DNA of 64,000 nt from IMG/VR virus record IMGVR_UViG_3300044712_000851, positions 32,885 through 96,884 of that record, one strand, 5' to 3'. This stretch comes from a virus. Its lineage: Duplodnaviria > Heunggongvirae > Uroviricota > Caudoviricetes. The notes below the pieces were generated by a model. The model did no database searches and had not been told where the DNA came from. It worked only from the letters and a program-made list of their open reading frames with translations. Positions within the stretch are counted from its first letter, which is position 1. The number at the start of each line of letters is the position of its first letter. Below are positions 35,687-35,926 of the stretch, piece by piece. The translations under genes and the position numbers were made by a program.

Positions 35687-35926
35687 TTAGACTTTAGGTC
35701 TAGCTTCGTTAACAACCAAGTTCCTACCTTGGAAGTCTTTATCGTTTAATGCGTCCTTTGCTTTTTGAGCATCAGCGGCATTATTAAATGTTACAAAACC
35801 GAAACCTTTTGACTTTCTAGTATATCTATCTACTATGATGACAGCCTCTGCCAAATCTCCATAGGTTCCAAATAAACTCTTAAGATCTTCGTCTACAACA
35901 CTGAAGGCAAGATTGCCTACAAACAA
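35687..35926 (-). CDS. RRM (RNA recognition motif) RNA-binding protein
   Basis: RNP2 MFVGNL and RNP1 KGFGFVTF; 79 aa, single RRM. Confidence 0.75.
   Translation of the reverse strand: MFVGNLAFSVVDEDLKSLFGTYGDLAEAVIIVDRYTRKSKGFGFVTFNNAADAQKAKDALNDKDFQGRNLVVNEARPKV

What the first reader, a model, noticed from the sequence alone, without database searches (positions are those of the whole stretch)
35687..35926. Single-RRM RNA-binding protein encoded inside a phage tRNA array
The 79-aa protein has textbook RNP2 (FVGNLA) and RNP1 (KGFGFVTF) motifs. It lies between tRNA genes, near the intron-like inserts and the Ro60-like gene. RRM proteins are rare in phages. A role in tRNA or ncRNA processing or chaperoning is plausible.
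Basis: partly seen in the sequence, partly recalled or inferred. Interest (0 to 1): 0.6.

Follow-up and report, generated by a model that had tools for sequence, protein, structure and literature searches.

The report
Bacterial-type RRM protein in phage tRNA array
A phage of about 100 kb carries a real, selectively maintained copy of the small single-stranded-RNA-binding (RRM) protein that many bacteria use as a general RNA chaperone; it sits between two tRNA genes as an optional insert, so it is an unusual accessory gene, not a demonstrated part of tRNA processing.

Summary
ORF 35687-35926 (-) is a canonical RRM_1 domain: Pfam E=5.7e-22, intact RNP2 LFVGNL and RNP1 KGFGFVTF, and an AF2 model with pLDDT 92 and TM 0.92 to solved RRMs. 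It lies between tRNA-Asn and tRNA-Gly in a 37-tRNA plus tmRNA array. The 534-aa neighbour does have a Ro60 fold.

The gene is functional. Three diverged phage orthologs keep the same position with dN/dS of 0.10-0.19.

It is an optional cassette. Two sister phages with the same Thr-Thr-Thr-Asn-Gly order and the same Ro60 gene have Asn and Gly 4 nt apart and no RRM. Other array junctions hold unrelated accessory ORFs.

A second lineage of the same phage group captured a different RRM, about 80% identical to Candidatus Roizmanbacteria proteins, at a Gln|Gln junction. Across IMG/VR, RRM genes are rare and mostly not tRNA-linked.

The best reading is a host-type, tail-less ssRNA chaperone or global RNA binder. 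It would be expressed from the tRNA-array transcript and released by tRNA processing. A dedicated tRNA, tmRNA or Ro60 role is not excluded but has no specific support.

The annotated TTG start is probably wrong. A conserved SD points to an in-frame ATT at 35941, giving 84 aa. I class it as a new member of a known kind, of moderate interest.

The parts
35687..35941 (-). RRM gene, probable full coding region (84 aa if started at in-frame ATT 35941-35939; the annotated 79-aa ORF starts at TTG 35926)
   Evidence: Pfam RRM_1 E=5.7e-22; NCBIfam Rbp_regulator 98.6 bits; dN/dS 0.10-0.19 among three phage orthologs; AF2 pLDDT 91.7, with strand beta1 starting at K5 of the 84-aa form, upstream of the TTG
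35909..35926 (-). RNP2 hexamer L(M)FVGNL (beta1)
   Evidence: translation; V3 and N5 invariant in alignment A1
35786..35809 (-). RNP1 octamer KGFGFVTF (beta3)
   Evidence: translation; G41, F42, F44 and V45 invariant in alignment A1
35937..35954 (-). Conserved translation-initiation block GAGGTGATGAAAAATTAA: Shine-Dalgarno GAGGTGAT, an out-of-frame ATG-AAA-AAT-TAA mini-ORF, and the in-frame ATT
   Evidence: The 17-nt stretch GGTGATGAAAAATTAAT (35952-35936) is identical in window, L002 and L008, although synonymous sites of the gene differ at 44-65%. ATT lies 9 nt after GAGG, whereas the TTG lies 24, 18 and 21 nt after it in the three phages
35560..35667 (-). 35-aa lysine-rich ORF (MAKSKKPTKKGMPFAKKG...) with its own SD, in the same inter-tRNA cassette
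   Evidence: conserved in L008, replaced by an unrelated 47-aa ORF in L002/L003; no family hit
35965..36037 (-). tRNA-Asn(GTT), upstream boundary of the cassette; its 3' end is 10 nt from the SD
35463..35537 (-). tRNA-Gly(TCC), downstream boundary of the cassette
35421..35449 (-). sigma-70-like promoter TTGACA-17-TAGTAT starting the next unit (123-aa ORF); marks the end of the tRNA-RRM-tRNA transcription unit
   Evidence: conserved in L002 and L008
31584..33188 (-). Ro60-like (TROVE ring + vWA) protein, 2.5 kb downstream in the direction of transcription; context only, not shown to be a partner
   Evidence: AF2 pLDDT 85; Foldseek top 12 PDB hits all Ro60

Best explanation
The gene encodes a minimal, tail-less member of the bacterial single-RRM (RRM-1, 'Rbp') family. 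An ancestor of this phage sub-lineage captured it from a bacterium, and it was inserted at the tRNA-Asn|tRNA-Gly junction of the tRNA array. It has no promoter of its own in the short gap after tRNA-Asn (10 nt to the SD). It is therefore probably transcribed as part of the tRNA-array precursor, and the RRM plus small-ORF mRNA would be released when the flanking tRNAs are processed (inferred). The protein would bind single-stranded RNA on its beta-sheet face through the RNP1/RNP2 aromatic residues. It would act as a general RNA chaperone or global RNA binder during infection, supplementing or competing with the host's own RRM proteins, and would not act as a tRNA-specific factor (inferred by homology). 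Shown here: domain identity, fold, purifying selection, conserved position, presence/absence polymorphism, and bacterial affinity. Inferred: co-transcription, RNA as the ligand, chaperone role.
For: Family and fold are established. The nearest non-phage relatives are bacterial 86-100-aa single-RRM proteins at 50-62% identity from many phyla. The closest of them, P0004, sits in a cellular context next to MetRS and ribosomal protein S1. dN/dS is 0.10-0.19 with dS 0.66-1.5 across three phage orthologs that keep the Asn|RRM|Gly position. GC (0.357) and GC3 (0.294) equal those of neighbouring phage genes, so the capture is not recent. Empty Asn|Gly sites occur in sister phages with the same array order and the same Ro60 gene. 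No terminator-like site lies on the - strand inside the unit, and the next promoter follows tRNA-Gly. Other junctions of this array and related arrays hold unrelated accessory ORFs. In Bacteroides, RRM-1 proteins are global ssRNA binders and cold-shock-like chaperones (PMC11697453, PMC13370968). A second, independent capture of a host-like RRM occurred in a related phage lineage: it is 70-82% identical to Candidatus Roizmanbacteria proteins but only 52% identical to this one.
Against: No expression or binding data exist. The phage protein lacks the basic or Gly-rich C-terminal tail present in nearly all bacterial relatives, which may change its affinity or mode of action. Two independent captures both landed inside tRNA arrays. 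This could mean that co-expression with tRNAs matters, and not merely that arrays are insertion hot spots. The conserved weak or non-canonical start suggests regulated, low-level synthesis, which fits poorly with an abundant general chaperone.
Confidence: 0.55

Rival explanations
1. The protein is a dedicated chaperone of the phage's own structured RNAs. It would bind single-stranded leaders, trailers and spacers of the long multi-tRNA precursor, or the tmRNA, or substrates or Y-like RNAs of the neighbouring Ro60-like protein. This would keep adjacent similar tRNAs from misfolding and promote processing. The role would be La-like, without a La motif.
For: The gene is embedded in the array on the same strand, with a conserved position in three lineages. 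A second RRM of independent origin sits at another array junction (Gln|Gln) in a related phage lineage, with at least two diverged members. The tmRNA lies 0.8 kb away and a Ro60-fold protein 2.5 kb away. Solved Ro60/La/misfolded pre-5S rRNA complexes were among the fold matches to that neighbour (that La contains an RRM is from general knowledge). tRNA within 500 bp is somewhat more frequent for viral RRM loci (5/80) than for bacterial ones (2/160).
Against: Sister phages with the same tRNA order, tmRNA and Ro60 do without it. Most viral RRM loci have no tRNA nearby. Array junctions also carry thioredoxin, Fic, HNH and methyltransferase genes, so position alone is weak evidence. No La motif or other specificity domain is present. 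No Y RNA reaches threshold near Ro60.
Confidence: 0.2
2. The protein is a host-takeover or counter-defence mimic. A tail-less copy of the host's global RRM regulator would compete for the host protein's RNA targets, or would sequester an RNA that triggers or guides host defence. This would redirect post-transcriptional control to the phage.
For: It is a host-type protein with its C-terminal tail removed in all three orthologs, which is a common format for dominant-negative mimics. It is an accessory, patchily distributed gene, as is typical for conflict genes. Host-like RRMs have been captured repeatedly. It lies in an early-type region with sigma-70-like promoters.
Against: No PADLOC or anti-defence evidence was sought or found. 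Tail-less single-RRM proteins also occur in bacteria (79-86-aa hits). Strong purifying selection, and not diversifying selection, acts on the gene.
Confidence: 0.15
3. The protein binds single-stranded DNA and not RNA. It would work in replication or recombination, and its array position would be irrelevant.
For: Some RRMs bind ssDNA. PDB relatives include H. pylori 'Ss-DNA binding protein 12RNP2' 2ki2, and FIR and RBM38 complexes with ssDNA.
Against: Relatives of this phage group already encode a canonical SSB (PF00436 in L253, L254 and L255). Characterised bacterial homologs crosslink to RNA in a way that is sensitive to RNase but not to DNase (PMC11697453). The gene lies in the tRNA and early region, not in the replication module at 50-54 kb.
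Confidence: 0.05

Closest known systems
Bacterial single-domain RRM-1 proteins (Bacteroides RbpA/B/C, P. gingivalis RBP PDB 7jly, cyanobacterial Rbp proteins, NCBIfam NF058537 'Rbp_regulator')
   Same: One RRM of about 80 residues with canonical RNP1 and RNP2. Identity to bacterial members is 50-62%. NF058537 scores 98.6 bits over the whole model. TM is 0.89 to 7jly.
   Different: It is encoded by a phage, inside a tRNA array. It has no C-terminal basic or Gly-rich tail. It scores 1.4 bits under the NCBIfam equivalog cutoff. It probably has a non-canonical ATT start. Its function is untested.
Eukaryotic cold-inducible RNA-binding protein CIRBP/hnRNP A18 and plant glycine-rich RBPs
   Same: These are the best structural matches (5tbx TM 0.92-0.93, 43-44% identity; 4c7q; 2mpu). 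They have the same RNP motifs.
   Different: They carry long RGG or Gly-rich tails and act in eukaryotic nuclei and stress granules. No evolutionary link beyond the shared domain is implied.
La protein / Ro60-Y RNA quality-control RNPs
   Same: This is a functional analogy only. An RRM protein and a Ro60-fold protein are encoded 2.5 kb apart, next to tRNA genes. La and Ro60 co-bind misfolded RNA (PDB 9nfa among the hits).
   Different: There is no La motif. The RRM is absent from most phages that carry this Ro60-like gene. No Y RNA was detected.
RRM gene of the L015/L259-type phage (IMGVR_UViG_3300002460_000033)
   Same: It belongs to the same broad phage group: Ro60-like protein 54% identical over the 284 aa held in locus L259, HNH 43%, primase-helicase 26%. 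It is also a single RRM inside a tRNA array, on the array strand.
   Different: It sits at a different junction (Gln|Gln). It belongs to a different RRM subfamily (LFVGGL), is 70-82% identical to Candidatus Roizmanbacteria proteins and only 52% to this one. It has a normal ATG start and retains a short tail.
Phage T4 RegA translational repressor
   Same: A small phage-encoded RNA-binding protein with an RRM-like fold (PMC7824862).
   Different: It is a different family. The protein here is a canonical RRM_1 with RNP motifs, and no RegA family match was reported.

Membership tests
RRM_1 (Pfam PF00076) | HMM score above the gathering threshold | tested here: met
   77.8 bits against 20.7, E=5.7e-22, profile positions 2-69 of 70
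RRM_1 (Pfam PF00076) | RNP2 hexamer [ILV]-[FY]-[ILV]-x-N-L on beta1 | tested here: met
   L(M)FVGNL at residues 1-6 of the 79-aa form; falls in strand beta1 of the model
RRM_1 (Pfam PF00076) | RNP1 octamer [RK]-G-[FY]-[GA]-[FY]-[ILV]-x-[FY] on beta3 | tested here: met
   KGFGFVTF at residues 40-47; falls in strand beta3 (44-52 of the 84-aa form)
RRM_1 (Pfam PF00076) | beta1-alpha1-beta2-beta3-alpha2-beta4 fold | tested here: met
   AF2 pLDDT 91.7 with E5-9 H17-25 E30-37 E44-52 H55-65 E76-79; TM 0.92 and rmsd 0.8-0.9 A to 5tbx
RRM_1 (Pfam PF00076) | Binds single-stranded RNA | not testable with these tools
   Needs EMSA or CLIP
Bacterial Rbp regulator (NCBIfam NF058537, equivalog_domain) | Score at or above the curated cutoff of 100 bits | tested here: not met
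   98.6 bits, E=1.9e-28, model positions 2-79 of 79. This is a near miss, so I file it as a relative and not as an equivalog
Bacterial Rbp regulator (NCBIfam NF058537, equivalog_domain) | Single RRM, 80-120 aa, usually with a short basic or Gly-rich C-terminal tail | tested here: inconclusive
   The single RRM is met. The tail is absent in all three phage orthologs, which end at ...EARPKV
Bacterial Rbp regulator (NCBIfam NF058537, equivalog_domain) | Cold induction or global RNA binding in vivo | not testable with these tools
   Known for Bacteroides RbpA-C (PMC13370968, PMC11697453)
La / La-related proteins (pre-tRNA 3'-end chaperones) | La motif preceding the RRM | tested here: not met
   Only RRM_1 and a sub-threshold RRM_8 hit were found; at 84 aa there is no room for a La motif
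Ro60-Y RNA module partner | Co-occurrence with the Ro60-like gene across related genomes | tested here: not met
   The Ro60-like gene is present and the RRM absent in L252, L253, L254, L255 and the P0132 contig
Ro60 (TROVE + vWA), for the 534-aa neighbour | HEAT-repeat ring plus vWA/MIDAS fold | tested here: met
   Top 12 Foldseek PDB hits are all Ro60, TM 0.52-0.56, E down to 1e-9; the MIDAS-like DxSxS motif (D345, S347, S349) is invariant in alignment A2
Ro60 (TROVE + vWA), for the 534-aa neighbour | Pfam TROVE or a sequence match to solved Ro60 | tested here: not met
   No Pfam, NCBIfam or PDB sequence hit

The most novel reading that the evidence does not exclude
Phages of this tRNA-rich, Ro60-bearing group have repeatedly recruited host RRM proteins into their tRNA arrays. 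The reason would be that the RRM works with the array transcript, as a La-like chaperone for the multi-tRNA precursor, the tmRNA or Ro60 substrates. That would make a phage-borne RNA quality-control or maturation module with three components: a complete tRNA set plus tmRNA, Ro60, and the RRM.
Probability: 0.15. Interest if true: 0.7.

Novelty: new member of a known kind. Interest (0 to 1): 0.4.

Why it matters
Canonical RRM-1 proteins are only now being recognised as the main small RNA chaperones or global regulators in bacteria that lack Hfq, ProQ and CsrA. Phage-encoded versions appear undescribed. The full-text searches found no report, and PHROGs has no matching family. This locus offers a clean natural experiment: filled and empty sites in otherwise syntenic phages, and two independent captures. 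It can show what a virus gains from a host-type RNA chaperone. It can also show whether genes placed between tRNAs are expressed by tRNA-punctuated processing. The second capture, about 80% identical to Roizmanbacteria proteins, also gives a host lead (candidate-phyla-radiation bacteria) for a large, uncultured group of phages of about 100 kb that carry complete tRNA sets.

Tried and rejected
1. DNA similarity to known phages found only a 59-nt tRNA match, so no close cultured relative exists.

2. Donor or host inference from the RRM failed. Bacterial relatives are all at 50-57% identity and spread over Nitrospirales, Ignavibacteria, Patescibacteria, Bacteroidota, Planctomycetota and others.

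3. The metagenome-contig scan was swamped by the shared VVNEARPK pattern and produced no closer phage relatives.

4. A general link between viral RRM genes and tRNAs was tested by counting tRNAs around 80 IMG/VR, 80 genome and 80 metagenome loci. tRNA within 500 bp occurred at 5/80 against 1/80 and 1/80. This is a weak excess and not a rule.

5. A Y RNA near Ro60 was sought. There is only a sub-threshold YrlA hit (28 bits against 69), and it overlaps ordinary tRNAs.

6. P0001, the 99%-identical protein, could not be located on a contig. A contig for P0132 had gene calls but no DNA.

7. The Microcystis phage MaAM05 hit is a 217-aa protein among bacterial-looking metabolic genes with no tRNAs. 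It is not a comparable case.

8. Gain versus loss of the cassette could not be resolved. Ro60 identities among RRM-positive and RRM-negative phages are all 61-65%, and the NJ topology is not reliable.

9. The 35-aa, 123-aa and 138-aa neighbours of the RRM gene, and the two larger ORFs in the array (180 and 236 aa), have no NCBIfam hit.

It was redone with alignment A3.

Full report
**Observation**

- It is an unambiguous RRM. Pfam RRM_1 gives E=5.7e-22 and 77.8 bits against a gathering score of 20.7, nearly end to end.
- NCBIfam's bacterial 'Rbp_regulator' model NF058537 gives 98.6 bits, 1.4 bits under its equivalog cutoff.
- 153 distinct PDB sequences match at E<=1e-8, all of them RRM proteins among the 60 listed.
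- RNP2 (LFVGNL) and RNP1 (KGFGFVTF) are intact.
- An AlphaFold2 model built on 30 homologs has pLDDT 91.7 and beta-alpha-beta-beta-alpha-beta topology.
- The model superposes on the CIRBP RRM (5tbx) with TM 0.92-0.93 and rmsd 0.8-0.9 A. It superposes on the Porphyromonas gingivalis RNA-binding protein 7jly with TM 0.89.

**Setting**

ARAGORN finds 37 tRNAs covering all 20 amino acids, plus a tmRNA, all on the minus strand between 35.4 and 44.2 kb. Rfam adds several more tRNA-like hits.
- The RRM gene lies between tRNA-Asn(GTT) 35965-36037 and tRNA-Gly(TCC) 35463-35537.
- A 35-aa lysine-rich ORF (35667-35560) shares the gap.
- The SD of the RRM gene begins 10 nt after the 3' end of tRNA-Asn.
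- No terminator-like site lies on this strand inside the unit.
- The next sigma-70-like promoter (TTGACA-17-TAGTAT, 35449-35421) lies just after tRNA-Gly.

Co-transcription with the array, and release of the mRNA by tRNA processing, is therefore the simplest reading. It is inferred, not shown.

The window is from an uncultured tailed phage of about 97 kb and 39% GC. It has no close cultured relative.

**Is the gene real and maintained?**

Two orthologs, 81% and 77% identical, occur on independent metagenomic contigs (P0002/L008-L009 and P0003/L002-L007). Both are at the same Asn|RRM|Gly position. Pairwise Nei-Gojobori estimates give dN/dS of 0.10-0.19 with dS of 0.66-1.5. This means strong purifying selection over substantial divergence. 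GC and GC3 of the gene equal those of neighbouring phage genes, so the acquisition is not recent.

**Start codon**

The annotated TTG lies 24, 18 and 21 nt downstream of the only Shine-Dalgarno sequence in the window, L002 and L008 respectively. In all three phages a 17-nt block, GGTGATGAAAAATTAAT, is identical, although synonymous sites of the gene differ at 44-65%.
- An in-frame ATT (35941-35939) lies 9 nt after GAGG.
- It is followed by 3, 1 or 2 AAT codons, then a lysine codon (AAG or AAA, a synonymous difference), then the TTG.
- This gives M-N(1-3)-K-L-F-V-G-N-L, which matches the MNQK[LI]YVGNL and MSKLYVGNL N-termini of bacterial homologs.
- In the model, strand beta1 begins at that lysine.
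- An out-of-frame ATG-AAA-AAT-TAA mini-ORF overlaps the block. Its ATG is only 2 nt from GAGG.

I conclude that the coding region is most likely 35941-35687 (84 aa) with a non-canonical ATT start. A +1 slip on the A5 run, or termination-reinitiation, cannot be excluded. This is an inference from conservation and spacing only.

**Rarity in phages**

tblastn of the protein against 50,697 phage records gave three hits at E<=1e-3.
- One is a 217-aa protein of Microcystis phage MaAM05. It lies among metabolic genes with no tRNAs nearby.
- The other two are metagenomic 'Acinetobacter phage MD-2021a' contigs.

PHROGs has no matching family. One RNP1 pattern found 168 RRM-encoding stretches in 2.9 million IMG/VR contigs, many of them on contigs longer than 200 kb. 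Full-text searches found no paper on phage RRM-1 proteins. A comparative survey of 224 jumbo phages mentions only RRM-fold polymerases and RegA.

**Is it tied to tRNAs?**

Comparative data mostly say no.

1. The 534-aa neighbour (31584-33188) has more than 200 homologs on phage contigs of 50-100 kb, which gives access to relatives. L253 (63% identical neighbour protein, 34 tRNAs) and L252 (62%) keep the order tmRNA/Ala - Thr - Thr - Thr - Asn - Gly. In both, Asn and Gly are separated by only the 4 nt ATAA and there is no RRM. L254, L255 and the P0132 contig also lack an RRM near this gene. The RRM unit is therefore an optional cassette of about 430 bp. Identities among RRM-positive and RRM-negative phages are all 61-65%, so gain and loss cannot be ordered.

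2. Other junctions of these arrays carry unrelated accessory genes.
   - In the window: two HNH endonucleases, a Methyltransf_24 protein and several orphan ORFs.
   - In relatives: thioredoxin, Fic, HAD_PNKP and PDDEXK.
   - The Thr|Asn junction is itself filled in the window and L002 but empty in L008, L252 and L253.
   - The arrays thus behave as insertion hot spots.

3. Among the 80 best IMG/VR RRM loci, 5 have a tRNA within 500 bp, against 1 of 80 bacterial-genome loci and 1 of 80 metagenome loci. Only one is flanked by tRNAs on both sides.

**A second, independent capture**

That one locus is informative. L015 (and L259, a contig of 98.6 kb) carries an 87-aa RRM between tRNA-Gln(TTG) and tRNA-Gln(CTG) inside a 26-tRNA array. 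A diverged relative, L262 (RRM 76% identical), has the same arrangement.
- The phage belongs to the same broad group. Its Ro60-like protein is 54% identical over the part held, its adjacent HNH 43%, and its primase-helicase 26%.
- Its RRM is of a different subfamily (LFVGGL).
- It is only 52% identical to the window protein. It is 70-82% identical to chromosomal RRM proteins of Candidatus Roizmanbacteria and similar small-genome bacteria.

Host-type RRM genes have therefore entered the tRNA arrays of this phage group at least twice, at different junctions. This is compatible with arrays being hot spots plus a general benefit of the protein. It is also the one observation that keeps a functional link to the array alive. 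In addition, it points to candidate-phyla-radiation bacteria as hosts of at least the L015 lineage. For the window phage the host remains open, because the closest cellular homolog is only 62% identical and relatives are spread over many phyla.

**The Ro60-like neighbour**

Sequence methods find nothing. A model with pLDDT 85 matches Ro60 structures along its full length. The top 12 PDB hits are all Ro60, including Thermus phage phiLo Ro60, Deinococcus Rsr, and Ro60/La/pre-5S rRNA complexes, with TM 0.52-0.56. An invariant DxSxS MIDAS-like motif is present. However, RRM and Ro60 do not co-vary across genomes, and no Y RNA reaches threshold.

**Mechanism**

Characterised bacterial single-RRM proteins bind single-stranded RNA with low-micromolar affinity. 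They act as global RNA binders and cold-shock-like chaperones in organisms without Hfq or CsrA (PMC11697453, PMC13370968).
- The phage protein keeps every RNA-contacting motif.
- It has lost the basic or Gly-rich tail found in almost all bacterial relatives.

My ranking of the explanations is:

| Explanation | Confidence |
|---|---|
| Host-type ssRNA chaperone or global binder made from the array transcript | about 0.55 |
| Chaperone dedicated to the multi-tRNA precursor, tmRNA or Ro60 substrates | about 0.2 |
| Tail-less competitor or mimic of the host RRM regulator | about 0.15 |
| ssDNA binder (relatives already encode a standard SSB) | about 0.05 |

**Verdict**

The protein is a new, phage-borne, tail-less member of a known bacterial RRM family, located in an insertion hot spot. 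It probably has a non-canonical start, and it has an independent parallel in a related phage lineage. Interest is moderate.

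Noticed in passing
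window 31584-33188 (-): This 534-aa protein has no Pfam, NCBIfam or PDB sequence match, but its AF2 model (pLDDT 85) has a full-length Ro60 (TROVE ring + vWA) fold. It has more than 200 homologs on phage contigs of 50-100 kb. In all 7 loci examined (the window and 6 relatives) it sits next to a 193-196-aa HNH gene (33620-34201 here). It represents a large, unannotated, divergent phage Ro60 family.
   Followed up: partly
window 34247-35029 (-) and 38046-38116 (-): Rfam finds tRNA hits that ARAGORN misses. Two full-model hits carry large inserts (34564-34684, 121 nt; 34893-35029, 137 nt). Two are truncated (34247-34313; 34697-34752). One is of normal length (38046-38116). They may be intron-bearing or degenerate tRNAs, or tRNA-like modules of a Y-like RNA upstream of the Ro60/HNH pair. 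No Y RNA model reached threshold.
   Followed up: no
window 35937-35954 (-): A 17-nt stretch within this block (GGTGATGAAAAATTAAT, 35952-35936) is conserved upstream of the RRM gene. It contains the SD, an out-of-frame ATG-AAA-AAT-TAA mini-ORF and an in-frame ATT, followed by a variable (AAT)1-3 repeat. This suggests a non-canonical ATT start or a regulated initiation or frameshift device.
   Followed up: partly
window 35560-35667 (-): A 35-aa lysine-rich ORF (MAKSKKPTKKGMPFAKKGASMTRSQMMKKAKMPGC) with its own SD lies directly after the RRM gene. It is conserved in L008 (16 of the first 18 residues) and is replaced by an unrelated 47-aa CxxC ORF in L002/L003. It might supply in trans the basic tail that the phage RRM lacks, but this is pure speculation.
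   Followed up: partly
window 35414-35449 (-): The promoter-like TTGACA-17-TAGTAT ends 6 nt before the ATG of the 123-aa ORF (35043-35414), and there is no SD. The same layout occurs in L002 and L008. It looks like a conserved leaderless mRNA.
   Followed up: no
window 36750-37067 (-): The phage tmRNA (Rfam 106.8 bits) has a predicted tag, EISKSLLKCQPLEKLLSV, that lacks the usual ...ALAA-type ending. The relative L252 has a tmRNA at the same array position with a more typical ...YALAWA ending.
   Followed up: no
window 36043-36459, 37562-37741, 38668-39150, 39834-40376, 40992-41702, 41851-42051, 42681-42875, 43014-43235, 43662-43988 (-): About ten protein ORFs are interspersed between tRNAs. 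They include an HNH_3 endonuclease, a Methyltransf_24 protein (236 aa) and a 180-aa ORF with a GxGxG-like motif. Junction occupancy differs between related phages, so the array is a hot spot for accessory genes.
   Followed up: partly
L015 / L259 / L262 (IMGVR_UViG_3300002460_000033 and relatives): A related phage of about 100 kb has an independently acquired RRM between two tRNA-Gln genes. It is 70-82% identical to Candidatus Roizmanbacteria RRM proteins, which points to a candidate-phyla-radiation host for this tRNA-rich phage group.
   Followed up: partly
L027 1192-1881 and L030 5314-5386 (IMG/VR contigs of 393 and 482 kb): In huge-phage contigs, RRM genes lie near tRNAs with anticodons TCA or CTA (called Sec/Pyl by ARAGORN, so likely stop-codon suppressors) and near a tmRNA. 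These phages may use alternative coding.
   Followed up: no
window 20509-21147, 29306-29986, 30336-31364, 45107-45877, 22600-23187 (-): Two ThiF-family E1-like genes flank the Ro60 region. A relative carries a ubiquitin-like Ub-Mut7C gene. Also present are a vWA protein 54% identical to Mycobacterium phage Myrna gp18, an SPFH/Band_7 protein and a DEDDh RNase_T-type exonuclease.
   Followed up: no
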